A stretch of DNA of 64,000 bases from Chlorobiota bacterium (GCA_044224515.1 JBGAKH010000011.1:14960-78959); one strand, 5' to 3'; numbered from the stretch's first letter, positions 13,872-52,692 are shown. The notes: generated by a model from the sequence alone, not told the origin. A program made the numbers and translations.

Positions 13872-14064
13872 AGTTTGTTCTCAGAAGATAGTAGTAGTGT
13901 AGGTAACAGTTTGTATCAAGCACGTACACGGATGGCCAGCCATGAGCGCTGCGCGTCATATTCCTATGAATGAACAAGACGTGTTAAGGTTTAATCTACT
14001 GAGAAATATGATAGTTCGAACGTTTAGGGGCTGAGAAGCTGGATACGAGCGTAGCAGGATACCC

Positions 14065-14226
14065 GTCCGCCTAGCCAACTAGCCAGCCAATCTGTTGCCA
14101 AAGTGGAAAAAAACGGAGAAATTAGTCACTCGGGGTCGAAGTAAATTAGCCACTTGCAGCGGAGAAAACTAGCCAGTCTGCGCCGGTCCATACTAGCCAG
14201 CCCGCGGCGGACCCAATTAGCCATCC
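14065..14226. repeat. Array of ~7 direct copies of the (A/C)TAGCCA(G) / AATTAGCCA motif at ~24-bp spacing
   Basis: Copies at ~14072, 14079, 14122 (variant TTAGTCA), 14146, 14170, 14193 and 14218. Inverted copies (GCTAATTGGCAG, GGTGGCTAAC) lie at 14544-14575. Confidence 0.5.
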
Positions 14227-14565
14227 AATCGCTACCAACCTGTTCATGTTTTGGCAGAACCAATTCTGAGTATGTTCTAGATTTTACAATGGAAACTCCG
14301 GCTAGTGCGACACACTCGTGTTTATCCCAAACGTGCGAATTTATATCAAGGCCAGTACTTTTGTGCGGTGAAGGTGCGTGATCAGTGTCGACGCATGCTC
14401 TTTACGAGTTACACGGGTTGGAACTACTCGGAAAGTCGTTGCGAAAACAGGCAAAGAAGACACACGATCTTGCGGGCAACTAATCTATTTGTGTTCAACC
14501 TTCTGGCAGATTATTAACACGTACTTTGGCAGCAGATTGCGGGGGCTAATTGGCAGCGCCGTAGG

Positions 14566-14931
14566 GTGGCTAACTTACCCGTCTTTTCCAATGACGACAA
14601 TAATTGCCTTGATAGTTGTGTGAAAGATGCATATTTCCAGGCATTTATCACAAATTGTATGGTGACGGATTGGGCTGATAAGGGATATTGTCTGCCGGAA
14701 AAAGTTGAAGATTGCCCAAGCACTAAGACGCATGTTTCGGTAACGAAGGGATTGTGTTGGACAATAACAAACACCGTAAAACCCGGAGGACATTTTGTAC
14801 GATCACTACAATGTTGTCCTGACGCAAATTGCGAAACACTTTATACAATTTGTATAGATCGGACCGTATTCCCGGCCATTGTGCAGTACAATTTCGTGAA
14901 TAAAAATCCCGTGGGATCGCCTACTTGTTAA
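14566..14931 (+). CDS. Hypothetical Cys-rich small protein
   Basis: 121-aa ORF with 10+ Cys and no clear signal peptide. Coding status uncertain. Confidence 0.25.
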   Translation: MANLPVFSNDDNNCLDSCVKDAYFQAFITNCMVTDWADKGYCLPEKVEDCPSTKTHVSVTKGLCWTITNTVKPGGHFVRSLQCCPDANCETLYTICIDRTVFPAIVQYNFVNKNPVGSPTC

Positions 14932-15123
14932 ACGATGTTTCCAATACTTGGCTCCAATAGTTCTAATTGGACGACGCCTTGTTTCCAAATAGATTGTTAC
15001 TAGCGTTGTGGGTAGATCTGTTTAGTGCGGGTCTACCATTTATAGTAAGTACGACTGGAAGAATATTTCAAAATAAAGACGGACTTATTATCTTTCTTCT
15101 ATTCTAAATCACGGATAGCTTCT

Positions 15124-17442
15124 ATGATTCACAGACAGATATCGGCCATATTCTTATGCATCTTCCTGTCAATATCTGCTTCCGCGCATTGCTTCGGGAT
15201 GCAGGGAGCATTTTACTCAGTAGGTACTGACTACGTAAAGGCAGTGTCTGCGGATTCGTGTACATATCTATATGGCTCAAATGGTTTTATAATTGGAACA
15301 AAGGATTTCGGTGATACCTGGAAGAACTGTACGATTCCTGGAGCATATCTGAATATTAAAGGTGTCGCTTGGTCGCACGGAGTACTGTATTCCGTGGACG
15401 AACTCGATGGTGCTTTTCGGATGGACCCTAAGAGTGGGACTTGGAGCAAGTTAAGTGCGGTAAGTGCCATGCTTTCCGGAGACAGTGTGATATCAATGTT
15501 CAGTGATAATGTACATGGCAACGTAGTCATTGTGGCTCGGCACAAAATAGTTTACTATGGCTCGTCAATGATTCCGCAGATGGCACCTGTGCCAGCTATT
15601 ACATCGATCAAAGCAGCAGTTGCAATAGGCTCTTTGTTTTTAGTTAGTGATAGCTTGAAAACCTACAGATTGGATCCTTCCGCTCAATACAGTTTAGTAC
15701 AATGGACCAATCCTGAGTACCTTAAATGCAAGTCGTGCTTGCTGCCTCGAGCAGTGTTTGATTCAGGAGATAGCCTTCTTGTTAATTACGGATATGTATG
15801 GTACCGTGTTTCTGCTGACATGAGTAGTGGTAAGATTATAGACTACACTCGCGGTGTTATTGGAGAACGAAACGGCGTATATCGAGTGTTGGAAGGTGAG
15901 TATAGTTCGGCGGCCGATCACTCTGTATTCCAGTCACGTGCTGTGCGAGAAGCCAATGACTCGTTTCAATATGTGGATACTGTTGCTCAAGACGATGAGT
16001 ATTTCATCGGCGACACTCAACTCAATGATATACGATGGTTGTCGGATTCTGTCGTTATTGTTGCTGGCTCGAAGAGCACGATATTCATTAGTCGTGATGG
16101 TGGCTGGACCTGGCAGCTAAGGTCTTACAATCCGTACGGAGTGGTTCAGAAAATGCGTGACTCTTTATTTGGTATCTCAAATGAACGAATTCGAGTTACG
16201 AGAACATGTGACGGGAATGTCACGTGGTTACCTCAGAAAATGACGAGTGACTTGAGTGACTATAACTGGTATACAGGAGGCGATGTTTTGTATTTAGGGA
16301 CAGATGTGGTAGTTATGGTAGACAATACCGGAACTACTGCCACATCCCACAACTACCGATATTCTTTTGATAGCGGAGCTACAATTAGCTATGGAAATGT
16401 AAAAAATTGGAGAAGCATGTATGCACTGAACAGTATGAGCTTAGAAAAAGATAGCGGGCGCTGGTGTATTTATCGAAGTGGGGAGGGGTATAGTAGTCCC
16501 CCATTCGAGTATTGGTATACTGTTCGCGTGTCTTTCGATTCTTTGATGCAGCCCGTAGGCTATATCCTTTTCGACTCGTTGAAGTATCGGAATATTGTAA
16601 GAATTGACGGCGCTCTTGTGACAGTCGCGACATCGTTTAAAAAGGATACATATGATCAAATCCGGATCATGCGTTCCTCTGATAACGGCAGAACATGGCA
16701 GACTGTTTCGGATACGCTATCACACCAGTATAGCTATCCAAGTGCGATAGCAGCATCTTCAAATCACTTATTTGTGCCAACATTTACGTATGATACGGAC
16801 TCGGTGTCTGTAAGTCTCATATCTTGGTATGACACATCGAATTGGATGAAAAGCGGTACGTGTATCAAGCTAAAACCAGCGGCAGATCCGATAATTGTTG
16901 AATGGCAACGATCGCTATATTTTGGTGGAAGACGCCGTATGTTGGCACATAAGGTAGGTAGTACTGATCCAATGGAATGGGATACCGTGTCACCTTTAGG
17001 CCCTTTATTCTACGGATGTCTTTCGGTTCAGGGGTCTAGCATGATACTATATGTTGCTAAGTTAGATTCGAACAATCGCACCTACAGTCGACGGTACGGG
17101 GTAATGAGACTTGAAGAGCAGAGTGTTGGCGTTGATAACTTGCACATCGAAAACAAAACCAGTATGCTAGTTGGAGATCCGTATCCGACTCCCTGCAGGT
17201 CAATCTGTAGAGTCTATTATTCTCACGACGACCAAGAGGAAGTAACCAATACAAATATCTCCGTATACGATGTCAATGGTTATCTGGTGGATCCGTCGCT
17301 TTATAATCTTAGCGTTGCGAACCAAAGCATGTCAAAGGCAGAGTTGACTTTTGAGATATCAAACTTCACGAAGGGAGTCTATATTTTGAGAGTGCAGAGC
17401 AGAAGTGGTACGCAATGTACAAAACTGCTCAAGTGCGAGTAA
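15124..17442 (+). CDS. Secreted BNR-like repeat protein with T9SS CTD (paralog family A)
   Basis: Signal peptide; SRDGGWTWQ and SDNGRTWQ Asp-box motifs. C-terminus ISVYDVNGYLV...GVYILRV is a T9SS CTD. Clear paralog of 20607..22961 (shared blocks FGDTWKNCTIPG/QGSNWTRFTIPG, VSRDGGRTWHF). Confidence 0.65.
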   Translation: MIHRQISAIFLCIFLSISASAHCFGMQGAFYSVGTDYVKAVSADSCTYLYGSNGFIIGTKDFGDTWKNCTIPGAYLNIKGVAWSHGVLYSVDELDGAFRMDPKSGTWSKLSAVSAMLSGDSVISMFSDNVHGNVVIVARHKIVYYGSSMIPQMAPVPAITSIKAAVAIGSLFLVSDSLKTYRLDPSAQYSLVQWTNPEYLKCKSCLLPRAVFDSGDSLLVNYGYVWYRVSADMSSGKIIDYTRGVIGERNGVYRVLEGEYSSAADHSVFQSRAVREANDSFQYVDTVAQDDEYFIGDTQLNDIRWLSDSVVIVAGSKSTIFISRDGGWTWQLRSYNPYGVVQKMRDSLFGISNERIRVTRTCDGNVTWLPQKMTSDLSDYNWYTGGDVLYLGTDVVVMVDNTGTTATSHNYRYSFDSGATISYGNVKNWRSMYALNSMSLEKDSGRWCIYRSGEGYSSPPFEYWYTVRVSFDSLMQPVGYILFDSLKYRNIVRIDGALVTVATSFKKDTYDQIRIMRSSDNGRTWQTVSDTLSHQYSYPSAIAASSNHLFVPTFTYDTDSVSVSLISWYDTSNWMKSGTCIKLKPAADPIIVEWQRSLYFGGRRRMLAHKVGSTDPMEWDTVSPLGPLFYGCLSVQGSSMILYVAKLDSNNRTYSRRYGVMRLEEQSVGVDNLHIENKTSMLVGDPYPTPCRSICRVYYSHDDQEEVTNTNISVYDVNGYLVDPSLYNLSVANQSMSKAELTFEISNFTKGVYILRVQSRSGTQCTKLLKCE

Positions 17443-17457
17443 ATTGGAAGTATGGTT

Positions 17458-17670
17458 TCAGATGGTGTTTGAATTGGCTCTTGAAATCTCCTCAGCAATG
17501 TCTATCAAATCCTGCCCCTGAATAACGAGATAAGGAGACGCTGTAATCGTCATGGTCTGCGTCTCCTTTTTCGTAAGTTCCAGCCCCTTGTACATCTCGA
17601 GTCCTGTCGTATACCACATTATCCGGAAGTATTTCTGTGACTTTCGCGTGACACGCATGGTATTCGTCAC
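17458..17670 (-). pseudogene. 3' fragment of a phage virion-morphogenesis (Mu G-like) gene
   Basis: 70-aa ORF matches the C-terminal 70 aa of the 51979..52692 product (RKSQKYFRIMWY / RSRKYFWMMYY; ASPYLVIQGQDLIDIAEEISR) but lacks the N-terminal two-thirds. Confidence 0.6.
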
Positions 17671-18025
17671 TCCGAACCGTTAAGCAGTAGCATAGCTTGA
17701 AAAACCGCAGCTGATAAGCCGCTTCTCAATGAAAGTTAGGTCGTGGAATTCGTATTGCCTATGTTTACTGATCCGCGTTATAACATGCAGTAATTGATAC
17801 ACTTCGTGAAGTGCACTAGGGGTATGTAGCATCAAGGTGCTAGATTAATCGGCAGAGGAATGTGTGGGGCTTTAGGGTGGATTGTCCACTTTGTCCGCTG
17901 CAGTTAAGGGGTGTAACTAACACTGTTTATATTGTGTTGAACCAAAGATTATCGTGCGGAACGGCAACTCAACAGTAGACCAATTGTGCTGATCCTAGTG
18001 GTTGCGAGTTGGAGTGTAAGCCACA

Positions 18026-19570
18026 GTGTCCATGATAGAAGTTGCTAATAAGAGGAATAATGATATGCGTACTTACATTGTGCTGATTCTTACAATGGCT
18101 CTCTTTTGTACAAGAATTGATGCTAGATCCGAGTTGCATCATTGGGTCACGAAAACTATTAAAGTCCCTGACTTTAAAATCACCTCCAAGTATTCGGTCG
18201 TTACAATCCAGGACATGATGAAAGTAGGCACCCAGACGTATTTAGTCCTCGGCTCAGCCGAATCTAGCCTTGGTTTGCCGGGTTTCAACAAATTGTATAA
18301 AACCTCTGATACTGGAGTAACACTGCAGGCAGTTACTAGTCAAATGTTTAGTGATTCACTGGGTCAAAATCGCTTTTTTGTACATGAGGATGGCCGCGGT
18401 TGCATTGTCGGCTTTCAACAACGCTACCTGACAAGTGATATCGGGTCTACCTGGAGCAGAATACAGGATCAACAAATGGAGTATTACCGAGGTTCTGATT
18501 CGTATGCTAACGTGATAGTAACAAATTCCCAGCGAGCCAGCATTTCGATCAGTGAAGATTTCGGTCAGTCGTGGCGTAAAATACCAATGCCGGACTCTTC
18601 TACGAATAGAACCAACATGATCAACTATCTTGTACTGGCTGACAGTGCATCTATGTATTTGCTTCGTCAAGATGTTAACTACAACACAGGCAGTGGACAA
18701 CTTCGTTTATTTTCGAGTAGAAATTTAGGAAAGGATTGGATGACATTGCGATGTCCGATTGAAGGGTTCGAGAACGATACTGCCGGAAATTGTAATGTAC
18801 AGGCAATCAAGTTTGTTAATCGTGGAAGTATTGGCTTGGCGTGCATTTCGTATCGAGATTCACTGAATACATTGGTTTACTCGATTGTGCGATCAACAGA
18901 CACCGGAATGCATTGGACGAAGATAGAGACATCACCGTTCGACCAAATGATTAATATGCCGAACCGCTTCTATTCTTATAGCCGAGATACCATTTTCATG
19001 ATCTATAGAAGTGGATGCATTAAAGTATCAACAGATGCTGGTCTATCATGGAGTTGGTTTGTAAAAGAAGTCCCTTGGTTTAAAGATGTAGGCAATACAC
19101 CTAACTATGTATCTTCTATGGGACCGATACTATTTGAGAGCACTAAGACAGCGGTCGCAGCGTTCGCAGGAAGACAAGACGGAGTGTTCAATATTATGTA
19201 CCTGGCAGACGGAGAACATGCCACTAGTGTTGAAGACGATACACTACCGGTGAGGAGTTTGTTGCTGAATTCAACGGTATATGTTGGTGAGTGCTATCCG
19301 ATGCCAGCTACTCGGGATCTTCAAATAGTAACAAACTTCACTCGTGGTTATGATCTTCAAGCTGTTTCCGTTGAAGTCTATGATTTGCAGGGCCAGCGGG
19401 TAGCGACAATGAGAAGTCCGGATGTTGTCTTTACTCCTCATATATGGGGTTCAGGTTGGTATACGCTTGGCATACCATTGGCAAATTTAGAGGTCGGAAC
19501 GTATATCGTTAATGTTTGTGATGGAAGAGGCAGTTGCCGGAGTGTCACGGTGTGTCACACACCTTACTAG
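18026..19570 (+). CDS. Secreted BNR-like repeat protein with T9SS CTD (paralog family B)
   Basis: Signal peptide; SEDFGQSW, STDTGMHWTK and STDAGLSWSW motifs; C-terminal CTD (VEVYDLQGQRV, GTYIVNV). Paralog of 50416..51918. Confidence 0.65.
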   Translation: MSMIEVANKRNNDMRTYIVLILTMALFCTRIDARSELHHWVTKTIKVPDFKITSKYSVVTIQDMMKVGTQTYLVLGSAESSLGLPGFNKLYKTSDTGVTLQAVTSQMFSDSLGQNRFFVHEDGRGCIVGFQQRYLTSDIGSTWSRIQDQQMEYYRGSDSYANVIVTNSQRASISISEDFGQSWRKIPMPDSSTNRTNMINYLVLADSASMYLLRQDVNYNTGSGQLRLFSSRNLGKDWMTLRCPIEGFENDTAGNCNVQAIKFVNRGSIGLACISYRDSLNTLVYSIVRSTDTGMHWTKIETSPFDQMINMPNRFYSYSRDTIFMIYRSGCIKVSTDAGLSWSWFVKEVPWFKDVGNTPNYVSSMGPILFESTKTAVAAFAGRQDGVFNIMYLADGEHATSVEDDTLPVRSLLLNSTVYVGECYPMPATRDLQIVTNFTRGYDLQAVSVEVYDLQGQRVATMRSPDVVFTPHIWGSGWYTLGIPLANLEVGTYIVNVCDGRGSCRSVTVCHTPY

Positions 19571-19583
19571 CATAATCTTTTTG

Positions 19584-20417
19584 CTACCACAGCTGTGAGC
19601 GGCTCCGAGTTTTAGCAATCTCCTCCGCAATATCAATCAAATCCTGTCTTTGAATGACGATGAAAGGAGATGCCGGAATAGTTATTTCCAGCGTCTCCTT
19701 TTTCGTTAGTGCCAGACCTTTGTACAAGGCCGCTGCTTCACTCAGGCGCACGATTGATTTTGAATGTGTTGTCGTATCCTCGCCCTTCTTCTCAGCTCTC
19801 TTCCTTCTCTTCTCAGCTTTGCTCAAGGTGTCTGTGAGCTTCTTGCGCCGGGACTTATCACCGGTGCCAGTGAGCGCGTAGTACATCATCCAGAAGTACT
19901 TGCGTGAGCGTGGGGTAATGCGAACCGTATGAGTGGATCCGAACTGCTGCGCTCGAGCCTGAGCTTTGTTTGAGCTAATGCTTACTTGGTTCGTACCGGA
20001 AACGCTCACCTCAATACTGGCAGCAAGTCCTCCACCGGTTCGTGCGAGTGTTCGCTCGGTGCTTTTTCCCACTGCTGCTTAAGCAACGCGAGTGCTGGCA
20101 GCCAGTGGCTTCCACCTGTCGCTTCCACCCGAGAACGGCGTGATACCAGCATCGCTTGAGTTGTAGCGTCCGCGCTCTTTAAAGTTCTGCTCGAACGATG
20201 CTCGCAGCACCTCGGCAATTTGGCGCATAGCCTCTGGCGGTATCTGTGCAGTCTCAGTTCGGTAATGACATTCGCGACGGAAACGATGTGTCGACCGTCG
20301 TGGAAATGGGGGGGCACTGGGAGTGGATACTCCATAGATGGCAAGAATCGAGCTGTCGACAATGTGTTTATAGAACGATAGTGGAGGTCGTTGAAGTACG
20401 AATTGGTGTATCCTCAT
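19584..20417 (-). pseudogene. Phage virion-morphogenesis (Mu G-like) gene copy inactivated by an in-frame stop
   Basis: Two same-frame ORFs (19584..20072 and 20079..20417) together align at ~90% aa identity with the 237-aa product of 51979..52692. Where the intact copy has Tyr (RVA-Y-AAVGKS), this copy has TAA. The N-terminal ~35 codons are replaced by unrelated sequence. Confidence 0.7.
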
Positions 20418-20419
20418 CC

Positions 20420-20530
20420 GGCATCAACAGGACAAAAAATGTATGGCGGCTTAACCACATACGTTCGGTACTACAATGAGGGACGATTACACAGTAGTCT
20501 GAAGCACCAAACACCGGTTGCAGTTTATCA
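20420..20530 (+). mobile_element. Remnant 3' end of an IS3-family (rve/DDE integrase) transposase gene
   Basis: Translates to ...YGGLTTYVRYYNEGRLHSSLKHQTPVAVYHQKK*, the conserved C-terminal tail of IS3-family OrfB transposases. No upstream catalytic domain is present. Confidence 0.55.
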
Positions 20531-20606
20531 CCAGAAGAAGTAGTTTAGACGTTGCATCCGGGACAGAAAAAGATTTACGCAGAAATCCTAAGATTTTGTC
20601 CGAAGA

Positions 20607-22961
20607 ATGGGGGGGCTCAACCGAAGCAAAAGAACTTACATTGATATATTTATGAAAAGAAGTCGTTTCTGGCATATCCTTTTACTGATGTTCACAGTTC
20701 ATCTTACAACGATTGCCGATGCAGGAATTCCAGTTTTTACCAGTTTAGGTACAGACTACACCGGGTCAGTTGTAGTTGATAATACGATATTTATATACGG
20801 TGAGAATGGCGTTATGATGCGTTCAACCGATCAAGGGTCTAATTGGACAAGATTTACTATTCCGGGACCGTTTCGTAAGATCAAAGGTGTCGTGGCTATT
20901 GGGCATTCAATTTATGCCGCAGATCAGCTCGCCGAGATCTACACTACTGACATAGTAACTTGCAATTGGCAGCCTCTACATGCTGTGTCAGATATGCTTG
21001 AGAATGACTCTGTGGTTGGGATGTTCCGGGAGAAAAACGCCGGTAATATTGTGATAGTGTCTCACAATAGTGTCACATATTTTGATTCCACGTTTCAAGT
21101 GAAGAGAACACTACTGGATAGTTCTCTTAACATTCAGTATGCAAGTATAGTTGGAAACACTATTATGGTCGCTAACAACGTGAAAACTTACATACTTGAT
21201 CGTAACAACGGTTACAAACCTGTGGTTTGGAAGAAGCCCGCTTATTTACAGTGTTCAAACTGCCTCCTCCCAAGCAATGTATGCGATGCTGGAGATAGCT
21301 TATTGGTCAAATACGGAATAGTATGGTATATAGTATCTCCTGATATGCAACAAGGTCGAGTAGTGGAACACAGCGATGGACTTGTTGCGGAGTACCGTGA
21401 CAGATTCACTGTCTTAGAGAATAGTTATGATGCTCCAACTGACCATTCGACGCTTCGATCACGATGTTTCAGAGAAACCAGCGGCCAAACCATTCGCTTC
21501 GACACGTTGATTCAGGAAGATGAGTACTATGTTGGCAGGGTTTACTTAAGCCGCATGAGAACGGTTGGTGATTCGACAATAGTTGCATTTGGAAAGAATA
21601 ATACAATCGTTGTTAGTCGAGACGGTGGACGGACATGGCATTTTAAATCTTATAATGCATATGGTCCTGTGCTTAAAATGCGCGACTCACTGTATGGAAT
21701 CACCAACGATCGCATTAGAGTCATTACGACAAAGGATGGCAATTGTACGTGGCTGCCGCAAAAAATGACTTGTGATACTACCGACCATGGCTGGTTTTCC
21801 GGAGGAGACGTATTCTACCTGGACAGTGTAGCGCTGATGGTTTGTAATAATGCCAACGGATGGACTAAAACGAACTACCGATTCATTTCCGAAAAGGATG
21901 GCGATGTGGTATATGGTAACATACCAGAGTGGAGAAGTGTATATTCAGTAAATAGTATGAGCGTTCTCAAAATTGACGATAGGTGGTCAATTTATCGTAG
22001 TGGACAAGGAGTAAGCTCCATGACTCAGGATTACTGGTACACCACTTTATCTATTCTCGATTCGAATTATAAACCGTTAAGTGTTAAGCTTTATGATTCA
22101 CTTCGAATCAGGAATGTCATAGACTTAGGATTAAAGAAACTCACCATATTTACGTCATATAGGGTCGATGACTATAACACCTCGAATTTATATGAATCAA
22201 CAGACGGAGGAGAATCTTGGACAAAATATACTACGAAAATATCTGCTGGTAATAACTATGATGGTCAGATAGTTAGCAGTGGTGACTTTCTGTTTGTGCC
22301 TAGTAACTATAAAGATTCTATTGGGTCTCGACACAATAGAATGGAGTGGATTGAAGCAAATAAGTATGAGAGTCATGGGGTCTGTTTTGAAGACACGGTG
22401 ACCGATATTACCTCGGTTGTAAACTGGAAAGGCAAAATATATTACGGGCAATTTGGTAGCTTAGTATTGCACTACGCCAAAAGTAGTGACCCTTTAGATT
22501 GGCTCAAGATCGCCCCATTTGGATATCTGTCGTATCACTGTTTTGGAACCCAGGGAGATTGTATGCTTGTTTCTCTTGCAAAAATAAGCTCAGGTAGTAT
22601 TTCCTCGGCAAGACAGTACGGATTATTGACATATTCCGGCGAATTGAGTTCTGTCAGTGAGGCCCATGTAGAAAATGATGCTAGTTTGTATCTACATTCG
22701 ACATATCCAAATCCGTGCAAAACTGTATGCAAATCTCACTATTCACATGATGACCAAGACGAGATTGGTGCGGCAAATATTAGTCTATATGACATTAACG
22801 GATTCGTTATTGATACTCAGGGATACAGTGTTGACGTTGCAAACACAACACTGCTAGAATGCGATATCACTCTTGACCTTACAAAAATACCGAGTGGAAT
22901 ATATGTACTTAGGGTTCGAAGTGGTACTGGTGCTAAATCTGTAAAAATATTGAAACTATAG
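20607..22961 (+). CDS. Secreted BNR-like repeat protein with T9SS CTD (paralog family A)
   Basis: 784 aa, signal peptide, STDQGSNWTR / SRDGGRTWHF / STDGGESWTK motifs. C-terminal ISLYDINGFVID...GIYVLRV CTD. Paralog of 15124..17442. Confidence 0.65.
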   Translation: MGGLNRSKRTYIDIFMKRSRFWHILLLMFTVHLTTIADAGIPVFTSLGTDYTGSVVVDNTIFIYGENGVMMRSTDQGSNWTRFTIPGPFRKIKGVVAIGHSIYAADQLAEIYTTDIVTCNWQPLHAVSDMLENDSVVGMFREKNAGNIVIVSHNSVTYFDSTFQVKRTLLDSSLNIQYASIVGNTIMVANNVKTYILDRNNGYKPVVWKKPAYLQCSNCLLPSNVCDAGDSLLVKYGIVWYIVSPDMQQGRVVEHSDGLVAEYRDRFTVLENSYDAPTDHSTLRSRCFRETSGQTIRFDTLIQEDEYYVGRVYLSRMRTVGDSTIVAFGKNNTIVVSRDGGRTWHFKSYNAYGPVLKMRDSLYGITNDRIRVITTKDGNCTWLPQKMTCDTTDHGWFSGGDVFYLDSVALMVCNNANGWTKTNYRFISEKDGDVVYGNIPEWRSVYSVNSMSVLKIDDRWSIYRSGQGVSSMTQDYWYTTLSILDSNYKPLSVKLYDSLRIRNVIDLGLKKLTIFTSYRVDDYNTSNLYESTDGGESWTKYTTKISAGNNYDGQIVSSGDFLFVPSNYKDSIGSRHNRMEWIEANKYESHGVCFEDTVTDITSVVNWKGKIYYGQFGSLVLHYAKSSDPLDWLKIAPFGYLSYHCFGTQGDCMLVSLAKISSGSISSARQYGLLTYSGELSSVSEAHVENDASLYLHSTYPNPCKTVCKSHYSHDDQDEIGAANISLYDINGFVIDTQGYSVDVANTTLLECDITLDLTKIPSGIYVLRVRSGTGAKSVKILKL

Positions 22962-23188
22962 CCTTGTTTGGACAACCCACCTCTCCTGCTTGCCTAGTCC
23001 GCCGCGGATAGCCCTAGCGCATTCGCATCAAACTTTACGGACTATGGACCTCGAAGAGCTTCTTCTGCTTAGAATTACAAAGTCGAAGCGTAAAGAGATA
23101 CTAAACAGAAACGATTAACCCACATTCGTGAAAACGGTTGGAACTTCAAACTTCCTAGTCCAGTTATACACTCTAAAAAGGACTCGTT

Positions 23189-24493
23189 GTGAAAAATGTC
23201 ATGATATGTAGTGTATTGGCTTTGTCATTGTGGTTGTTTAGTGCAGTTGAAGCAGAAGCTCAACTCAGCTCGGCGTTTTTTGCCGTTCGACCTGAGCAGA
23301 TGCGTTATTTAAGGTACGACCGCATTGTAAACGAATTTGATTCGGCGGTTGTTTCGATAACAGTCGGTGAGTTTAAAGTAAGTAGTGAAACTAACACCTT
23401 ATTGTTACCACTGTTTGTAGTCCCGACTGACTCTGTGGTCAACGGAATTGGTAGTGTGGTTCGGGATAATTCGATTGCTGCGAGAATGAGAACCGAACCC
23501 TTTGCAATTCCCACTAGTACCTTCAACGTAACATTCTTTCGCGAACTATTAGGTACCAACAATTTATGTGCTTTGCCCGGCAATAGCGGTTCTACTGGAA
23601 TTGATAAACACTGGACACTCGGGTCCAACAAAGTAGCTGAGCGCACCGAGTTCATTATTGAAATGGTTCGTCAAAGCGACGGTGCCGTTATCTGCACGGT
23701 GGACTCGGTTGGAGTTTTACCAAATCCTACAACTAGTATTATTCAGCGCTATGGTACATTTCCGGACCACATGAATCATTCTCGTACATTGAGTGGAGTA
23801 TCTTACTCAGATAGCGCTTACTTCAGGATAGTTCCCGCACGAGACACTTTAACACCATTTGGCTTTCGTGCTAGTCAAATGTCTATGTATGTAAATCTGT
23901 CTGCTATTAGAGAGTACTCAGATTCTGCATTAACTAAACTAAATTCGGTCGATTCGGATTCGTTACAGCACCTTTATTATTTAGACTTAAAACAATATTA
24001 TGATAGTACGATAGCTGCAACAGGAAGTTTGCCTTATCGAGCTCCAAATGTTTTACCTGTTGGCTATGAAAGTCAATTTTTAAACTCATATTATGTGAAC
24101 GCAACTCCCTGGAAGACCGACACTATTTTGTGGAAGAATAATCCTGGAGCATACTCAAAAATAGGTTTTACTCCAGGTCGTGACTCGTCGATTCGACTCG
24201 CTGATTTGAAGGATGCTCTATGCACTGTAGAGATGTGGACAGTTAATAGTGGCAGCAGTAATAAAATAGATTTGATAATAAAAACGAGGTTTTACTTTAC
24301 AAATAGCAAAGTTGTCTTGTTTGATATGATGGGGAGAACAGTTGCACAATCTCAAATCCCATTTATTTATACTAAGAACAACAAAATTCAAGTAGATGTG
24401 GATCAAGAACTGGCATCTGGCAGCTATGTTGTGGTACTTTTCAGTAGTGACAATCAATTATTGAGTTGGACAAAAATTGTGTATGAGAAGTAG
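23189..24493 (+). CDS. Secreted hypothetical protein with T9SS CTD
   Basis: Signal peptide (LWLFSAVEAEAQ). C-terminal VVLFDMMGRTVAQ...GSYVVVLF CTD pattern. Confidence 0.5.
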   Translation: MKNVMICSVLALSLWLFSAVEAEAQLSSAFFAVRPEQMRYLRYDRIVNEFDSAVVSITVGEFKVSSETNTLLLPLFVVPTDSVVNGIGSVVRDNSIAARMRTEPFAIPTSTFNVTFFRELLGTNNLCALPGNSGSTGIDKHWTLGSNKVAERTEFIIEMVRQSDGAVICTVDSVGVLPNPTTSIIQRYGTFPDHMNHSRTLSGVSYSDSAYFRIVPARDTLTPFGFRASQMSMYVNLSAIREYSDSALTKLNSVDSDSLQHLYYLDLKQYYDSTIAATGSLPYRAPNVLPVGYESQFLNSYYVNATPWKTDTILWKNNPGAYSKIGFTPGRDSSIRLADLKDALCTVEMWTVNSGSSNKIDLIIKTRFYFTNSKVVLFDMMGRTVAQSQIPFIYTKNNKIQVDVDQELASGSYVVVLFSSDNQLLSWTKIVYEK

Positions 24494-25043
24494 CCGCACG
24501 ACATCGATTTACGTTCTTCTGTGTAAGAAGAAATGAGTGCATTTATATCTAAATGGTTGTTGCATCAACAACGTCTTGCTGCCAAGAATCGGTAAAAAAG
24601 TCCACGGTTGTATGTATTTCTAGTAGTGAGTAAACATTAACTGGCTCTCATTCTGAGTTGGATATTTTGCGTTGGAGGACGGCTTTCAACGCTACAGCTT
24701 TCAACGACGGGTTGTCATACTAACATCTTACAGTCTAGTTGGACAATCCGACCACTTCACCCCAGCAAATCCATATCGAGTTGATCAAGCATCTTCCCGT
24801 CAGACCTTCCAACTCCTAGCTCTCGAAGTTACACTTGTGCTGAAACATACATTGCGGATCAGTAAAGACATCAGAGACGGAAACGATGAGTCGACTGTTG
24901 TGGAAATGGTGGGTCATTAGGTGTGGATTCTCCAGACCTGCCGACAAACTCAAACTAGAGTGAATAGTAGCTTCCGAGAAGATGTTCCAAATGTGCTTGG
25001 CTTTACAAGGCGGGGTGCAACGCAATTGCGGAAAGAAAAAATA

Positions 25044-25073
25044 AAGCCCTTGTCTAATAATAGTCCAAGGGCT
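25044..25073. terminator. Hairpin (AAGCCCTTG...CAAGGGCT) upstream of the integrase
   Basis: 9-bp stem with a 13-nt loop in the intergenic region; preceded by the palindrome CGCAATTGCG. Confidence 0.3.
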
Positions 25074-25295
25074 GAAGAAGAATTGTCGTAAGAGACAGGG
25101 TATGGTTCTTACGAAATTGGATACGTGGGACCTGAGGGACGCTCTGCGGTGTTTTTACATTGCTAGAGTTGTCCGCCTGTTGAAAACAAACACCCGAAAA
25201 TAGGCTTGATTCTGCGTTTCGCGCTCGCGAGTTGTGCGCTGCTTGGTAGTTTTGATTAGTTCAAGAAAGTTCAAAACTGCCCAAAAGCTGCCCAA

Positions 25296-26495
25296 GTGCC
25301 CAAGGTAAATTTCTACATCGAGTCCTACAAAAACCAGCTCGGAGAGTCGCAGCTTCGAGCTCAGATGACCTATGGCAACAAGCGCCTTCGCGTGCCTACA
25401 CTTTTGAGTGTCAAACCAGAGGACTGGGATCCAGTCAAACAGCAGGTTCGAAAGTCTGCGAAGGGGAGCGCCAAACAAAATCACATCCTATCAACCATCA
25501 AGGCACGATTGCTCGACATCTTTCAAGACTTCCAGCTCGCGGGACAGTTCTCGCCCACGGTGGAGCAGATCACAGGTGAGTTCAATAGAAGTACGAACCA
25601 GAAGACCGAGACTATAGAGACGCTCTTTGATGCGTTCATAGCAGAGAAGAGCCCGCTCGTGACAGCAAACCTCATCAAGCACTACGTTATAGCCTTCAAT
25701 CACCTAAAGGCATTCTCAAAGGCAGCACGTGCGCCACTGGTGCTGCAGAACATGGATGAAGGATACTACACTCGCCTGCGCGGGTACCTGGTGGAGCAGG
25801 GCATGCTCAACAACACGATCGGCAATCAGATCAAGTATCTCAAAGCGTTCCTTGCATGGTGCGACCGGCAGGGCTACGCAGTGCACCCTGGTTATAAGCT
25901 ATGGAAGAAGCTTAAAGAGAAGGTGAGTATTGTGACGCTGACCGAAGACGAGCTTGTAGCGATCGAGGCGCTTGATCTTTCGGCCACTCCAGGACTGGCG
26001 CGCACCCGGACACTGTTCTTGCTTGAATGCTACTCCGGTCTCAGATGGTCAGACGCCTCCCGAATAACGAAAGCTTCGCTCCACTCGGACTACTTGCTAG
26101 TGAACGTTCGTAAAACACAAGAGCCCTTGCGTATTCCGCTCACAAGACAGCTCAAGTTGGTAGTGGAGACACTGCTATCCGGCGAGATGCCAAAGGTCTC
26201 AGCACAGAAGTTCAACGATCAGATTAAAGAGGTCTGCCGGCGTGCTGGGATTGACGCCGAGGTGCAGCACGTCAGACATAGTGGGGCTGAGAGACGAGAG
26301 GCGCATTTCGCTAAGTGGCAGCTTGTTACATCGCACACCGGACGTCGGACGTTTGTAACCTTATCACTGCAGAAAGGAATGCGGCCGGAGGTCCTGATGC
26401 AGATCACCGGCCACAAAGACATTGGGACTATGATGCGCTACGTCAATATCTTGGGGGAGACCACTGCGAAGGAGATGAGGAAGGCATGGAGCTAA
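25296..26495 (+). CDS. Tyrosine-type site-specific recombinase (phage integrase)
   Basis: C-terminal catalytic region with HTGRRTF (Arg), GHKDIGTMMRY (His...Tyr). N-terminal arm/SAM-like domain typical of Bacteroidota integrases. GTG start. Confidence 0.8.
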   Translation: MPKVNFYIESYKNQLGESQLRAQMTYGNKRLRVPTLLSVKPEDWDPVKQQVRKSAKGSAKQNHILSTIKARLLDIFQDFQLAGQFSPTVEQITGEFNRSTNQKTETIETLFDAFIAEKSPLVTANLIKHYVIAFNHLKAFSKAARAPLVLQNMDEGYYTRLRGYLVEQGMLNNTIGNQIKYLKAFLAWCDRQGYAVHPGYKLWKKLKEKVSIVTLTEDELVAIEALDLSATPGLARTRTLFLLECYSGLRWSDASRITKASLHSDYLLVNVRKTQEPLRIPLTRQLKLVVETLLSGEMPKVSAQKFNDQIKEVCRRAGIDAEVQHVRHSGAERREAHFAKWQLVTSHTGRRTFVTLSLQKGMRPEVLMQITGHKDIGTMMRYVNILGETTAKEMRKAWS

Positions 26496-29547: not shown

Positions 29548-29595
29548 GGATGCTCCTTATTGAATGTAACGGTACCTAGTGAGACACAATAACAG

Positions 29596-33151: not shown

Positions 33152-33153
33152 CG

Positions 33154-49730: not shown

Positions 49731-50411
49731 ATGAATACTGTAAAGCTACTCGTAGTAGCTGCGTTGCTGCTAACTACGTCACCTATATATACGTACAGTC
49801 AGTGTCCTATCGGGTGGAAGTACATAGTAGTAAACTCAGCGGCAGGAGCCTGCCCTTGGAAGATAGAGTTGTGTGCGTTCTACGACAATACTGTTACTCC
49901 GAATGTTCTGCACATGAATGTTTTGAGTGCCAAGACTATAGCGGGTTGTCCATGCGTAACCAAAGCCGGTCTAGTGAATCAGTTTAACGCGAATATATTT
50001 CCTAGTGTGGTGCTTCAACTAGCTGCGCAGGGAATAAATATAAGTATACCAGTCTGTCCGAATCCTATCCCGTCGCCACCCGATCCAGCTGACTATGGAC
50101 TGATTCTCAAATATTCATGGAGCAACTGCGCGACAGATTGCCTTAACAGACTAGAGACAGAGACTTTTTCTGACGGTCAAGAACACGAAGTATTTTCAAG
50201 CTCTGACTGCAATACTTCTACATCATGTTTTCATACGTATGGTGTATGTTGTCCAGCTAGTCCAACACTAGGCTGCCCTCCTATTGCATATCACTTTGCC
50301 GATTTTGGAGTAGAAACCGGCGGAATTACTCCTGAGTGTGGGGTGCAAGTTGTTATTACCAAAGAATACCCGTTAGGACATACTTATCAATGCTATCCAC
50401 AATGCCCATAG
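49731..50411 (+). CDS. Secreted Cys-rich protein (cargo)
   Basis: Signal peptide MNTVKLLVVAALLLTTSPIYTYSQ. About 24 Cys in 226 aa, with CPxxC/CC pairs. Confidence 0.5.
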   Translation: MNTVKLLVVAALLLTTSPIYTYSQCPIGWKYIVVNSAAGACPWKIELCAFYDNTVTPNVLHMNVLSAKTIAGCPCVTKAGLVNQFNANIFPSVVLQLAAQGINISIPVCPNPIPSPPDPADYGLILKYSWSNCATDCLNRLETETFSDGQEHEVFSSSDCNTSTSCFHTYGVCCPASPTLGCPPIAYHFADFGVETGGITPECGVQVVITKEYPLGHTYQCYPQCP

Positions 50412-50415
50412 TGAA

Positions 50416-51918
50416 ATGCTAGATTTGAGAAAACACCTCTACTTTGTTGCCGTTCTGCTTCACATTTCATTGGTTTGCTGGTCGCAAGACACATTCAGAT
50501 GGAGTGCTAAAGCAGTGTACTGCGATGGTCGTAGTAAAATTGGGTTTCAAGATTTCGTCTCAACTAATTGCATCTTTGACATTGAATCCGGGAAACTTCT
50601 TTGGGTTGCGACGGCTTCAAGTGACATTTCTACGCCTTACAAGCTGAAGTACCAGCTTAATAGCTTCAATGACTCATCTTGTGCAGTTAAGAACAATATT
50701 CTGATTGAGCTTGATTCGTTTACGAATGCGATTGGCATACAGCTTAATAGAACGTCATGCATGATCTTGTCCCAAAGAGAGTGCATTTCAACAAACGATG
50801 GATTTCGCTCATGGAGTACGTCAACAAACGATTCCTTGTACGGGTTTTACTGGGGATATGATGTGCGAGATTCAACAATACTCGTTAGCCTTAACTATTC
50901 GAATGCATACCTCTGTAGCACTAATTCAGGAAAAGAATGGCACAGATTGACAACACCTAGGATGGGGTCAACAGCCCACGTTGTGCTGAATCGATTCCGC
51001 ATCGTTGAACCGAACGTATACTTTTGCGTTTCTTCCCATTCAGACCGTGAAGCTGGAACAAAGTTGTATAAGTCTCAGGATGGAGGTGGTTCGTGGACAG
51101 AGATGGTTGATTGCTTTCCAACGTCGAACAATGATTCAACAGATCTCTATAACGTAAATGCCATTACTTTCACTTCGGCTGGGATTGGCATAATGGAAGT
51201 AAGCCACACTGTAAATGGCATATCTTTCCATGAGATACTTCGGTCAACGGATAAGGGCAAGACTTGGCTGTTGATTCGATCCAGTGAGTATAACGTCGGT
51301 GATGTACGTTCTCCAGGCATACATTTGAAGTGCGTTAGTGCCGATACGCTGTTGCTGTTTTGCATTAAGGGGCAGGTAATGATAAGCAAGGATGCAGGTC
51401 TGAGTTGGTCATGGTTGGTTCGAGAAGATCTAAGTAAGTATGATGACGGCAGGCCATTACCAATACAGGTAGTTAGCAACCCATTGGTAATTTCAAGTAC
51501 AGAGGTGTACGCGTCATTCGATTGGAGACAAGATGATAGTTTGAATATTATGAAACTTGTTCCGGAAACAGTTAACGAAGTCGAGGATAAAATTGACACC
51601 GAGACGAACAGAATTGAGTACAATGACATGTGGTTTGGAGAAGCCATACCTAGCCCAGCCTACGAGGAGTTGCGTTTAGGAGTGTCGCTACTAAAATCTG
51701 TTCCATTTGAGTCAACCAGATACGCACTCTACGATTTCTATGGGACTAGGATTCAAAGTGGCACTCTTGGTCAGTTGGAAGTTCGCGGCCATAGGTACGG
51801 TATGTCATGGAGTACGTATGTGCTCAATCTGAGTCAGTATCCGGAAGGCATTTATTTCGTGCAAGTTGGCGATCAAACGTATACCGATTGCAAGGCAATA
51901 ATGCATCTCAGACGTTGA
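50416..51918 (+). CDS. Secreted BNR-like repeat protein with T9SS CTD (paralog family B)
   Basis: STDKGKTWLL, SQDGGGSWTEM, SKDAGLSWSW. C-terminal CTD (RYALYDFYGTRI..GIYFVQV). Paralog of 18026..19570. Confidence 0.65.
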   Translation: MLDLRKHLYFVAVLLHISLVCWSQDTFRWSAKAVYCDGRSKIGFQDFVSTNCIFDIESGKLLWVATASSDISTPYKLKYQLNSFNDSSCAVKNNILIELDSFTNAIGIQLNRTSCMILSQRECISTNDGFRSWSTSTNDSLYGFYWGYDVRDSTILVSLNYSNAYLCSTNSGKEWHRLTTPRMGSTAHVVLNRFRIVEPNVYFCVSSHSDREAGTKLYKSQDGGGSWTEMVDCFPTSNNDSTDLYNVNAITFTSAGIGIMEVSHTVNGISFHEILRSTDKGKTWLLIRSSEYNVGDVRSPGIHLKCVSADTLLLFCIKGQVMISKDAGLSWSWLVREDLSKYDDGRPLPIQVVSNPLVISSTEVYASFDWRQDDSLNIMKLVPETVNEVEDKIDTETNRIEYNDMWFGEAIPSPAYEELRLGVSLLKSVPFESTRYALYDFYGTRIQSGTLGQLEVRGHRYGMSWSTYVLNLSQYPEGIYFVQVGDQTYTDCKAIMHLRR

Positions 51919-51978: not shown

Positions 51979-52692
51979 TTAGCGTTTTCGAGTGCGAGAT
52001 ATCTCCTCAGCAATTTCAATCAAATCCTGCCTTTGAATAACGATATAAGGAGATGCCGGAATAATTATTTCCAGCGTCTCCTTTTTCGTTAGTGCCAGAC
52101 CTTTGTACAAGGCAGCAGCTTCACTCAGGCGCACGATAGCTTTTGAGTGTGTGGCTGTATCCTCACCCTTCTTCTCGTCACGCTTCCTTCTCTTCTCAGC
52201 TTTGCTCAAAGTGTCTTTGAGCTTCTTGCGCCGGGACTTATCACCTGTGCCCGTGAGCGCATAGTACATCATCCAGAAGTACTTGCGTGAGCGTGGGGTA
52301 ATGCGAACCGTATGAGTGGATCCGAACTGCTGCGCTCTGGCCTGTGCTTTATTCGAGCTGATGCTCACCTGGTTCGTACCGGAAACGCTCACCTCAATAC
52401 TGGCAGCAAGTCCTCCACCGGTTCGTGCGAGTGTTCGCTCGGTGCTTTTTCCCACTGCTGCGTATGCAACGCGAGTGCTTGCAGCCAGTGGCTTCCATCT
52501 GTCGCTTCCTCCAGAGAACGGCGTGATCCCGGCATCGCTTGAGTTGTAGCGTCCGCGCTCTTTGAAGTTCTGTTCAAACGATGCTCGCAGCACCTCGGCA
52601 ATTTGGCGCATTGCCTCAGGGGGGATCCGTGCTGTCTCGGCAGCAAGCCGTGAGACAAGCTCGTTTATTGTTTGTGGGTCCGCAGCAATCAT
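51979..52692 (-). CDS. Phage virion morphogenesis protein (Mu G/P2 S-like) with Lys/Arg-rich insertion
   Basis: AQQFGSTHTVRITPRSRKYF resembles the YAxIHQFGG block of the tail_comp_S family. Lies downstream of F-like in Mu order. Contains a KR-rich insert (SRRKKLKDTLSKAEKRRKRDEKKGED) that is absent from the 17458 fragment. Confidence 0.55.
   Translation of the reverse strand: MIAADPQTINELVSRLAAETARIPPEAMRQIAEVLRASFEQNFKERGRYNSSDAGITPFSGGSDRWKPLAASTRVAYAAVGKSTERTLARTGGGLAASIEVSVSGTNQVSISSNKAQARAQQFGSTHTVRITPRSRKYFWMMYYALTGTGDKSRRKKLKDTLSKAEKRRKRDEKKGEDTATHSKAIVRLSEAAALYKGLALTKKETLEIIIPASPYIVIQRQDLIEIAEEISRTRKR

What the first reader, a model, noticed from the sequence alone, without database searches (positions are those of the whole stretch)
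15124..24920. Decayed prophage remnant next to the intact prophage, retaining only cargo genes
The region holds four T9SS-CTD cargo genes, interleaved with two decayed copies of the phage G-like morphogenesis gene (a 3' fragment at 17458-17670 and a nonsense pseudogene at 19584-20417). It also contains an IS3-family transposase tail (20420-20530) and a short sequence repeated just upstream of the live prophage integrase. This suggests serial or tandem integration of related phages at the same site, followed by erosion of the older one while the secreted-protein morons were kept.
Basis: partly seen in the sequence, partly recalled or inferred. Interest (0 to 1): 0.55.

Follow-up and report, generated by a model that had tools for sequence, protein, structure and literature searches.

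The report
Eroded prophage relics keeping secreted-protein genes
Next to a live prophage inserted in a tRNA-Met gene lies 11 kb of wreckage from at least two older, related phages, in which only the phage-carried genes for surface or secreted (T9SS) proteins are still intact; this is an ordinary kind of genomic fossil with an unusual cargo.

Summary
Window 13.9-25.1 kb is low-GC DNA whose only long intact ORFs are four signal-peptide/T9SS-CTD genes. Between them lie a 3' fragment and a nonsense, 5'-truncated copy of the live prophage's Mu-G-like gene, plus IS3 transposase debris.

New evidence supports a prophage-relic origin:
- Three related genomes have tRNA-Met 0.5-1.8 kb from the 407-aa/MgtE genes. 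Here the exact 16-nt 3' end of that tRNA sits once, 155 bp upstream of the live integrase. The relic therefore fills the slot where older integrants would be pushed.
- The pseudogene differs from the live G almost only at third codon positions (dN/dS 0.09, dS 0.33), so it came from a separate functional phage.
- The arrangement 'cargo gene convergent on G' occurs three times, once inside the live prophage.
- A related MAG carries a comparable array.

Corrections: the 'att-like' repeat upstream of the integrase is IS3 debris, not att. No second att core or integrase relic survives. A phage origin for cargo3 and cargo4 is only circumstantial.

The kind is known (a cryptic prophage at a tRNA hotspot that keeps its morons). 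T9SS cargo as the moron, sitting between conserved flanks while itself very divergent, is the modestly new part.

The parts
13872..14565 (.). Eroded left border between the host 407-aa CTD gene and the relic. It has no recognisable gene and holds a 29-nt imperfect inverted repeat (14194-14222 / 14544-14572).
   Evidence: A six-frame Pfam scan found nothing. 14401-14455 shows a weak 76% match to the IstB 3' end in L039. No tRNA-Met core is present.
14566..14931 (+). 5'-truncated Cys-rich 'partner' gene upstream of cargo1. It is the counterpart of the 226-aa gene that precedes cargo5 in the live prophage.
   Evidence: 32% identity over 56 aa (E 2e-5) to the 204-aa Cys-rich protein that precedes a distant cargo-family gene in L118. 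The ORF lacks a signal peptide and the N-terminal ~95 aa.
15124..17442 (+). cargo1: an intact 772-aa gene encoding a signal peptide, tandem beta-propellers and a T9SS type A C-terminal domain.
   Evidence: PF18962 E 6.4e-10. TIGR04183 28.2 bits, above the cut-off of 23. AF2 model pLDDT 81, with two propellers plus a C-terminal beta-sandwich. 38% aa identity to cargo3.
17458..17677 (-). G' : a 3' fragment (last ~70 codons) of a 'short-type' Mu-G-like virion morphogenesis gene, convergent on cargo1 with a 15-bp gap.
   Evidence: 82% nt to 51998-52109 and 79% to the other copy. The translation lacks the K/R-rich insert. 81% nt over 186 bp to L039 G#1.
18026..19570 (+). cargo2: an intact 514-aa beta-propeller/CTD gene and a distant homolog of the live prophage's cargo5.
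   Evidence: Sortilin-Vps10 E 8.5e-12, with the CTD match below the cut-off. 23% aa identity over the full length to cargo5, E 4e-28.
19584..20255 (-). G pseudogene ('long type'). It has one nonsense codon (20079-20081), the first ~19 codons are deleted, and it is convergent on cargo2 with a 13-bp gap.
   Evidence: 92% nt over 638 bp to the live G. dN/dS 0.09, dS 0.33, differences by codon position 6/7/44. phrog_26 E 5.5e-7.
20259..20615 (+). IS3-family transposase 3' remnant. It has an in-frame stop, its own stop codon ends at 20543, and about 70 nt of probable IS end follow. It abuts the truncated 5' end of the G pseudogene and ends just before cargo3.
   Evidence: rve_3 E 2.3e-11. 52-53% aa to the ISGlo6 transposase. 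75% nt over 273 bp to L039 1555-1827.
20652..22961 (+). cargo3: an intact ~769-aa paralog of cargo1 (the ORF opens at 20607).
   Evidence: PF18962 E 2.5e-7 and TIGR04183 30.6 bits. The database entry P0022 is 769 aa.
23189..24493 (+). cargo4: an intact 434-aa gene with a signal peptide and a weak T9SS CTD. It is unrelated to the other cargo genes.
   Evidence: CTD 17.3 and 15.8 bits, both below the cut-off. The C-terminal motif was judged by eye. No paralog in the window.
24859..24947 (+). Second short internal fragment of an IS3-type transposase gene. This is the 'repeat upstream of the integrase'.
   Evidence: 78-82% identity to 20259-20347, which runs directly into the rve_3 tail in copy A. 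The assignment rests on that continuity, so it is of moderate strength.
25125..25140 (-). Exact 16-nt 3' end of tRNA-Met(CAT). This is the displaced att core marking the integrase-side end of the live prophage and the right-hand limit of the relic.
   Evidence: It is the only match in the window. The tRNA sequence comes from L007-L009. About 3e-5 such matches are expected by chance in 128 kb.
25296..26495 (+). Tyrosine integrase of the live prophage.
   Evidence: Phage_integrase, Arm-DNA-bind_5 and SAM_5 domains. phrog_1 E 2e-27.
49731..51918 (+). Reference moron module inside the live prophage: a 226-aa Cys-rich secreted protein plus cargo5 (500 aa). It is low in GC and convergent on G.
51979..52692 (-). 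Live Mu-G-like virion morphogenesis gene, the last gene of the TerL-portal-MuF-G operon.
   Evidence: PF05069 33.9 bits, above the cut-off of 24.3. The neighbours match Phage_Mu_F, Portal_Mu and Terminase_3.

Best explanation
Window ~13.9-25.1 kb is a graveyard of at least two older temperate phages of the same family as the live prophage, downstream of a tRNA-Met integration hotspot.

How it arose (inferred from position, order and orientation):
- Each phage integrated through its tyrosine integrase into the 3' end of tRNA-Met.
- Each new integration rebuilds the tRNA and pushes earlier integrants away from it, towards the host 407-aa gene.
- Deletions and IS3 activity then removed the integrases, att cores, early genes and nearly all virion genes.

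What remains (shown):
- The moron modules these phages carry between the end of the early operon and the end of the packaging operon. Each module is a small Cys-rich secreted protein plus a beta-propeller protein with a T9SS sorting domain.
- Whatever piece of the convergent G gene lay within a few hundred bp of each module.

Function (inferred, not shown): the cargo genes stay open, most likely because the host benefits from these T9SS-exported surface or secreted proteins.
For: 1. Insertion site.
- L007, L008 and L009 (MgtE 72-77% identical) keep synteny with window 575-11893, and L007 also with 12648-13871.
- They then have tRNA-Met(CAT) and a conserved 259/600/568-aa trio. None of these is in the window, and there are no homologs of cargo1-4, G or the integrase.
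- The source organism's ortholog of the 259-aa gene (P0008) is reported on a 163,699-bp NCBI contig, the same length as the contig carrying G (taken to be the same contig). In a contig from the same sample (L038) it is followed by the 5' part of tRNA-Met.
- The exact 16-nt tRNA 3' end lies once, in the expected orientation, at 25125-25140, 155 bp before the integrase.

2. Separate phage origin.
- The G pseudogene versus the live G gives dS 0.33 and dN/dS 0.09.
- G' is a different subtype, without the insert.

3. Same architecture.
- Cargo converges on G, 13-60 bp apart, three times in the same orientation and order as in the live prophage. G homology ends at its stop codon.
- cargo2 is homologous to cargo5.
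- Truncated partner genes lie upstream of cargo1 and, weakly, of cargo2.

4. Foreign composition. GC is 0.40-0.47, against about 0.51 for both host and phage core.

5. Parallel case. L039, from the same MAG as L008, carries G pseudogene / F fragment / IS3 tail / cargo-family gene / G pseudogene / F fragment / frameshifted integrase.

6. Differential decay. About 2,500 cargo codons carry no disruption, while the ~290 codons of G relics are truncated and carry a nonsense codon. This is a rough post hoc comparison.
Against: - No second copy of the tRNA-Met core was found (up to 3 mismatches in 16), and no integrase or other phage-gene relic besides G, anywhere in 13.9-25.1 kb. Same-site integration of the older phages is therefore not directly shown.
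- cargo3 and cargo4 have no attached phage fragment and are bracketed by IS3 debris, so they may have arrived by another route.
- In L039 the two G/F fragments share the same truncation point and are 87% identical. This shows that such units can also multiply by duplication of a segment that has already decayed.
- The nearest relatives available are different species or genera, and no strain of the same species without the insert could be found.
- The right end of the live prophage (attR) lies outside the window.
Confidence: 0.69

Rival explanations
1. The cargo/G units were not left behind by whole phages that integrated here. They were copied into this intergenic region piecemeal, by recombination with a passing or resident phage, by IS3-mediated mobilisation (a composite or one-ended transposon carrying cargo3 and cargo4), or by segmental duplication of units that had already decayed.
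For: - IS3 fragments in the same orientation bracket cargo3-cargo4.
- The IS3-tail/cargo junction is shared with L039 at 75% nt.
- The two G/F fragments in L039 have an identical truncation point, which implies duplication of a decayed unit.
- The relic has no att core or integrase remnant.
Against: - G' and the G pseudogene are different subtypes with different truncation points, so in the window they are not duplicates of each other.
- Order, orientation and position match what tandem integration at tRNA-Met predicts.
- In L039 the cargo gene has an IS3 remnant on one side only.
Confidence: 0.17
2. The four T9SS genes are an ancestral chromosomal cluster, and the phage G fragments and IS debris were inserted among them secondarily.
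For: - The host carries many BNR/CTD genes. 575-3472, 4899-8315 and 12648-13871 are conserved in relatives.
- The wider cargo1/3 family is chromosomal in other organisms. L118 sits among PGI, TGT and NusB.
Against: - No homolog of cargo1-4 lies at the syntenic locus of three relatives.
- GC is 6-10 points below that of the host T9SS genes.
- A cargo2 homolog sits inside the live prophage in the same position relative to G.
- The only close relative of cargo1/3 (P0023) again lies among G pseudogenes and an integrase.
Confidence: 0.04
3. The array is kept because it is useful as such. The conserved flanks (the G 3' end downstream, the IS3 tail or partner gene upstream) would act as recombination handles. 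Incoming or resident phages and the chromosome could then swap very divergent alleles of a surface-protein gene, making the array a cassette reservoir under diversifying selection.
For: In three comparisons the flanks are far more conserved than the cargo:
- G 92% nt against cargo2/cargo5 23% aa.
- IS3 tail 75% nt against cargo3/cargoX 30% aa.
- G'/G#2 78% nt against cargo1/cargoX 29% aa.

Homology breaks exactly at gene borders. A similar array exists in a second genome.
Against: - Sharp mosaic borders around morons are normal in phages and need no dedicated mechanism.
- The cargo genes are complete, independently startable genes, not silent cassettes.
- No exchange event has been observed, and there are only two genomes.
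Confidence: 0.1

Closest known systems
Cryptic (defective) prophages and tRNA-linked islands formed by serial integration, such as the E. coli K-12 cryptic prophages or tandem islands at tRNA genes (from general knowledge)
   Same: - Lies beside a tRNA att site next to a related live prophage.
- Virion genes are pseudogenised or truncated, with IS debris among them.
- Accessory (moron) genes are kept.
- The region is absent from the same locus in relatives.
   Different: - Erosion is extreme. No integrase, att core or any phage gene other than G fragments is left.
- The retained genes are all T9SS substrates.
- The host belongs to a poorly studied Kapabacteria/'Chlorobiota'-like lineage known only from MAGs.
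Phage morons / lysogenic-conversion genes placed between convergent operons (for example in lambdoid and Mu-like phages; general knowledge; reviewed in PMC7380047 and PMC6469090)
   Same: - Atypical GC.
- The insertion sits at an operon boundary just past the stop codon of the last packaging gene.
- The encoded proteins carry export signals.
- Different phages of one family hold different alleles in the same slot.
   Different: - The cargo carries a type IX secretion sorting domain. Three full-text searches found no paper describing T9SS substrates as prophage morons.
- The module has two genes, a Cys-rich partner plus a beta-propeller.
T9SS type A CTD cargo proteins of Bacteroidota (TIGR04183 / PF18962)
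   Same: N-terminal signal peptide, a beta-rich passenger (tandem beta-propellers in the cargo1 model) and a C-terminal beta-sandwich of about 75-85 aa with the family motifs.
   Different: - cargo2, cargo4 and cargo5 score below the curated cut-offs.
- Secretion was not tested.
- The genes are phage-borne or phage-derived rather than core chromosomal.
IS3-family insertion sequences
   Same: The C-terminal rve_3 part of the transposase, 52-53% identical to ISGlo6, followed by a probable IS end.
   Different: Only a decayed 3' remnant of about 285-355 bp and a ~90-bp internal fragment are left. There is no orfA, no DDE core and no inverted-repeat pair. The remnant is conserved next to a cargo gene in two genomes.

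Membership tests
Defective prophage remnant | Contains phage virion-gene sequences that carry inactivating lesions. | tested here: met
   There are two relics of the G gene. One is a 3' fragment only. The other has a nonsense codon plus a 5' truncation.
Defective prophage remnant | Derived from a phage that was once functional, rather than from a duplicated host gene. | tested here: met
   dN/dS is 0.09 and dS 0.33 against the live G, with 44 of 57 differences at third codon positions.
Defective prophage remnant | Lies at a phage integration site and is absent from the same locus in relatives. | tested here: met
   It lies between the displaced tRNA-Met 3' end (25125-25140) and the host 407-aa gene. 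In L007-L009 that interval is 0.5-1.8 kb and holds no cargo or phage genes. Caveat: the relatives are other species.
Defective prophage remnant | Has its own att repeats and/or an integrase relic. | tested here: not met
   There is no second tRNA-Met core (up to 3 mismatches in 16) and no integrase or other phage-protein similarity in the intergenic stretches. This lowers confidence in 'same-site serial integration' but not in a phage origin.
T9SS type A cargo | C-terminal sorting domain scoring above the curated cut-off (PF18962 27 bits; TIGR04183 23 bits). | tested here: inconclusive
   Met for cargo1 (39.6 and 28.2 bits) and cargo3 (31.3 and 30.6 bits). Below the cut-off for cargo2 (21.6 and 20.6), cargo4 (17.3 and 15.8) and cargo5 (16.9; no TIGR04183 match).
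T9SS type A cargo | N-terminal Sec signal peptide. | tested here: inconclusive
   Hydrophobic N-terminal segments are present in all of them, but only by inspection. The cargo1 model has an N-terminal helix at residues 2-22. No signal-peptide predictor was available.
T9SS type A cargo | The host has a T9SS, and the protein is exported and processed by it. | not testable with these tools
   The only support is indirect: conserved chromosomal CTD proteins in the host and its relatives.
Mu G / Phage_tail_S virion morphogenesis protein (PF05069) | Profile match above the gathering score, and a position after the Mu-F-like and portal genes. | tested here: met
   The live G scores 33.9 bits against a cut-off of 24.3. 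The order TerL-portal(Mu)-MuF-G is seen here and in L005. The relics are assigned through their homology to the live G.
IS3 family | Transposase with an rve/rve_3 integrase core. | tested here: met
   rve_3 E 2.3e-11, and 52-53% identity to an annotated IS3-like ISGlo6 transposase. Only the tail is present.
IS3 family | A complete element with orfA/orfB, a programmed frameshift and terminal inverted repeats. | tested here: not met
   Only 3' and internal fragments remain, and they contain stop codons. They are remnants, not an active IS.
Moron | An autonomous transcription unit (own promoter and terminator) of atypical composition, inserted at a gene border of the phage. | tested here: inconclusive
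   The composition and gene-border criteria are met. Promoter and terminator scans gave no more hits than shuffled sequence, and the consensus used may not suit this phylum.

The most novel reading that the evidence does not exclude
The relic may not be mere wreckage but a maintained chromosomal store of T9SS surface-protein cassettes. Highly divergent alleles of two cargo families sit between conserved 'handles': the G 3' end on one side and an IS3 tail or partner gene on the other. Phages of this family and their hosts could exchange surface-protein alleles by homologous recombination, under diversifying selection such as receptor masking or superinfection exclusion. A comparable array in a second genome (L039) would then be a recurrent, selected architecture.
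Probability: 0.1. Interest if true: 0.65.

Novelty: new member of a known kind. Interest (0 to 1): 0.38.

Why it matters
This is a clean, well-bounded example of how prophage decay feeds genes into a host. The only survivors of at least two dead phages are genes for proteins exported by the type IX secretion system.

If temperate phages of these little-known Bacteroidota/'Chlorobiota' relatives routinely carry T9SS substrates as lysogenic-conversion genes, then phages help shape the cell-surface and secreted proteome of T9SS-bearing bacteria. Three full-text searches found no paper describing this. In practice it also warns annotators that low-GC T9SS genes beside a tRNA may be phage-derived.

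Tried and rejected
- att core from the 76-89-bp repeat: rejected. The repeat runs directly into an IS3 transposase tail.
- Other direct repeats linking 24.9-25.3 kb with the left border: only a 16-nt match with two mismatches (14766-14781 / 25185-25200), which is at chance level.
- tRNA and Rfam scans of the window: nothing found.
- Walking off the right end of the window to find attR: four exact-protein look-ups failed, because the NCBI source contig is not indexed.
- Close relatives of G or of the cargo genes in viral contigs: none.
- The word-indexed search for cargo2/5 found only the protein itself.
- Metagenome scan with a G profile: 78 loci, all distant (24-35% identity). By inspection of ORF sizes and C-termini, none has an evident CTD-type cargo gene downstream of G.
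- Sequence search of the PDB with cargo1 and cargo2: no hits.
- Fold search with the cargo1 model: only generic tandem beta-propellers, for example the Bacteroides HTCS sensor domains, with TM 0.3-0.5. No specific function follows from this.
- Promoter and terminator scan: no more hits than in shuffled sequence.
- Six-frame Pfam and tblastn of all prophage ORFs against the intergenic stretches: no integrase or other relics.
- DNA similarity between the region downstream of the tRNA in relatives and the window: only a 21-nt match with E 0.11.

Full report
**Map of the window**

Window 1 to about 13.9 kb is host chromosome (GC about 0.51). It holds two BNR/CTD genes (one with a subtilase domain), a transporter, an epimerase, MgtE and a 407-aa CTD gene.

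From 25.3 kb to beyond 64 kb lies a seemingly complete temperate phage:
- an integrase at 25296-26495;
- a low-GC block of defence-type genes;
- a CI-like repressor and replication genes;
- a low-GC two-gene module at 49731-51918;
- on the minus strand, G-MuF-portal-TerL, followed by head genes that run off the window.

The finding concerns the low-GC stretch between the two (GC 0.40-0.47).

**Observation check**

- The only long ORFs in the stretch are four genes with hydrophobic N-termini and C-terminal T9SS-type domains. The domain matches are above the curated cut-offs for cargo1 and cargo3 and below them for cargo2 and cargo4.
- 19618-20255 is 92% identical over 638 bp to 52001-52638 inside the live G gene. 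It has a single TAC-to-TAA nonsense codon and has lost the first ~19 codons.
- 17458-17670 encodes the last ~70 residues of a G protein. It is 82% identical at the DNA level to the live G and lacks the K/R-rich insert.
- The + strand of 20319-20543 encodes the tail of an IS3-family transposase, with an rve_3 match at E 2.3e-11 and 52-53% identity to ISGlo6.
- 20259-20347 is repeated at 24859-24947 at 78-82% identity.

**Where the region sits**

A genome scan with MgtE found three related MAGs (72-77% identical, labelled 'Chlorobiota bacterium'; nearby database names point to Kapabacteria).
- They are syntenic with window 575-11893, and L007 also with the 407-aa gene. This includes the host T9SS genes, which are therefore ancestral.
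- Beyond that point all three have tRNA-Met(CAT) and then a conserved trio of 259-, ~600- and 568-aa genes. None of these is in the window, and no relative has cargo1-4, G or the integrase within the 10-kb flank.
- The source organism's ortholog of the 259-aa gene (P0008, 79%) is reported on a 163,699-bp NCBI contig, the same length as the contig that carries G, which I take to be the same contig. In a contig from the same sample (L038) it is followed by the first 29 nt of tRNA-Met, where that contig ends.
- The exact last 16 nt of that tRNA occur once in the window. They lie on the expected strand at 25125-25140, 155 bp upstream of the integrase. About 3e-5 such matches would be expected by chance.

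So the live prophage is integrated in the 3' end of tRNA-Met. The region in question (13872-25124) fills the interval between the displaced tRNA end and the host 407-aa gene. That interval is 0.5-1.8 kb in the relatives.

In a tRNA hotspot, each new integrant rebuilds the tRNA and pushes older ones away from it. The older ones end up exactly in this interval.

**Origin of the G relics**

The pseudogene and the live G differ at 57 sites, 44 of them at third codon positions (dS 0.33, dN/dS 0.09). The two genes therefore diverged as working genes in separate phages, and the inactivation is recent. The pseudogene is not a decayed duplicate of the resident gene.

G' belongs to another subtype. It lacks the ~50-aa insert and is 81% identical over 186 bp to a G copy in L039. 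At least two older phage lineages are therefore represented.

**Shared architecture**

In the live prophage a 226-aa Cys-rich secreted protein and cargo5 converge on G, with 60 bp between the stop codons.
- cargo1/G' and cargo2/G-pseudogene show the same convergent layout, with gaps of 15 and 13 bp. Strand and order are those expected for tandem prophages.
- In all three copies the G homology ends at or near the stop codon, and each copy joins a different cargo gene.
- cargo2 is a full-length but very distant homolog of cargo5 (23% aa). cargo1 and cargo3 are paralogs (38% aa).
- Upstream of cargo1, ORF 14566-14931 is a 5'-truncated Cys-rich gene. It is homologous to the 204-aa gene that precedes a distant member of the cargo family in an ordinary chromosomal context (L118).
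- A possible 13-aa trace of such a partner gene precedes cargo2 (E 0.6).

The broader cargo1/3 family is thus a normal chromosomal family of proteins about 760 aa long, with about 90 members at E below 1e-10, from which the phages picked up members. An AlphaFold model of cargo1 (pLDDT 81) shows two beta-propellers and a C-terminal beta-sandwich. Structure matches are generic tandem propellers.

**The 'att-like' repeat**

Copy A of the repeat runs without a break into the IS3 transposase tail, and the secure transposase homology overlaps it by about 29 nt. It is therefore best read as transposase-coding debris, and copy B as a second short IS3 fragment.

The true att core occurs only once in the window. 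There are no integrase relics and no other phage-protein similarities in the intergenic stretches. Same-site integration of the older phages is therefore inferred from position, order and orientation, not demonstrated.

**A parallel case**

The only close relative of cargo1/3 in 1.84 billion representative proteins (P0023) lies in the same MAG as L008, on another contig (L039). The order there is:
- a G nonsense pseudogene;
- an F C-terminal fragment;
- a longer remnant of the same IS3;
- the cargo-family gene;
- a heavily decayed G copy;
- a second F fragment;
- a frameshifted integrase, followed by IS elements.

The IS3 tail and about 70 nt beyond its stop codon are 75% identical between the two genomes, and the similarity ends just before the cargo start. 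The cargo proteins themselves share only 30% identity. The two G/F fragments in L039 are 87% identical and end at the same nucleotide, so there a unit that had already decayed was duplicated.

This shows that such arrays recur. It also keeps open a rival route to the same structure: piecemeal copying, or IS-linked movement, particularly for cargo3 and cargo4.

**Verdict**

The most likely reading (about 0.7) is serial integration of related phages at tRNA-Met, followed by deletion and IS-driven erosion, with the T9SS-cargo morons preserved. About 2,500 cargo codons carry no disruption, while the neighbouring G relics are truncated and carry a nonsense codon. This suggests selection on the cargo, but the comparison is rough and post hoc.

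The kind of feature, a cryptic prophage at a tRNA hotspot that retains its morons, is well known. What is new is the nature of the morons. Three full-text searches found no description of prophage-borne T9SS substrates. The other new point is the pattern of conserved flanks around very divergent cargo alleles, which leaves room for a cassette-exchange reading that I consider unlikely (about 0.1).

Noticed in passing
L039:1-6600 (GCA_039810585.1 JBDHXF010000047.1, same MAG as L008): A second genome carries a comparable array: G nonsense pseudogene, F fragment, IS3 remnant, cargo-family gene (P0023), decayed G, F fragment, frameshifted integrase, then IS4 and IS21 elements. The two G/F fragments are 87% identical and end at the same nucleotide, about 165 bp before the integrase.
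   Followed up: partly
window 20341-20613 and L039:1555-1827: The IS3 transposase tail and about 70 nt beyond its stop codon are 75% identical between the two genomes, and the similarity stops just before the cargo start. The adjacent cargo proteins share only ~30% identity. The IS remnant may be kept because it supplies the cargo gene's promoter, or it may mark a mobile IS-cargo unit.
   Followed up: partly
window 49731-50411, 14566-14931; L118:7309-7923: The beta-propeller/CTD genes come with an upstream small Cys-rich secreted protein, forming a two-gene module. The module is intact in the live prophage, truncated upstream of cargo1, and also present in a housekeeping chromosomal context in a distant genome.
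   Followed up: partly
window 52100-52260 (live G) and 19720-19880 (pseudogene): The live G and its pseudogene carry a ~50-aa K/R/E-rich insert (TGTGDKSRRKKLKDTLSKAEKRRKRDEKKGEDT...). It is absent from G', from L039 G#1 and from the three other homologs aligned (P0003-P0005). P0003 has a different charged insert at another position.
   Followed up: no
window 26512-35951: A low-GC block next to the integrase inside the live prophage holds a DUF5131 protein, a GMT-wHTH protein, an AbiJ N-terminal-domain protein, an N6/N4 methylase fused to an Mrr-type endonuclease domain, and several ORFs with no family match. It looks like a defence or moron island.
   Followed up: no
window 14194-14572: A 29-nt imperfect inverted repeat pair (79%) encloses about 320 bp, and its middle (14401-14455) weakly resembles the 3' end of an IS21 istB gene in L039. 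It may be a MITE or IS relic that truncated the partner gene at the relic's left border.
   Followed up: no
L038:10784-10855 (Logan SRR28480385): The contig from the same sample that carries the 260-aa gene stops at position 29 of tRNA-Met, and contig L001 stops inside the G pseudogene. Both assembly breaks fall at repeats (tRNA or att, and G), which fits the structure deduced here.
   Followed up: partly
window 575-3472, 4899-8315, 12648-13871: The host's own T9SS-CTD genes have normal GC (~0.51) and are conserved at 55-68% aa in three related MAGs. They are a useful contrast to the low-GC, unconserved cargo1-5.
   Followed up: yes
window 57120-58568 and 31493-33151: The prophage encodes two N6/N4 DNA methylases. 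One heads the packaging operon and the other is fused to an Mrr-like nuclease domain.
   Followed up: no
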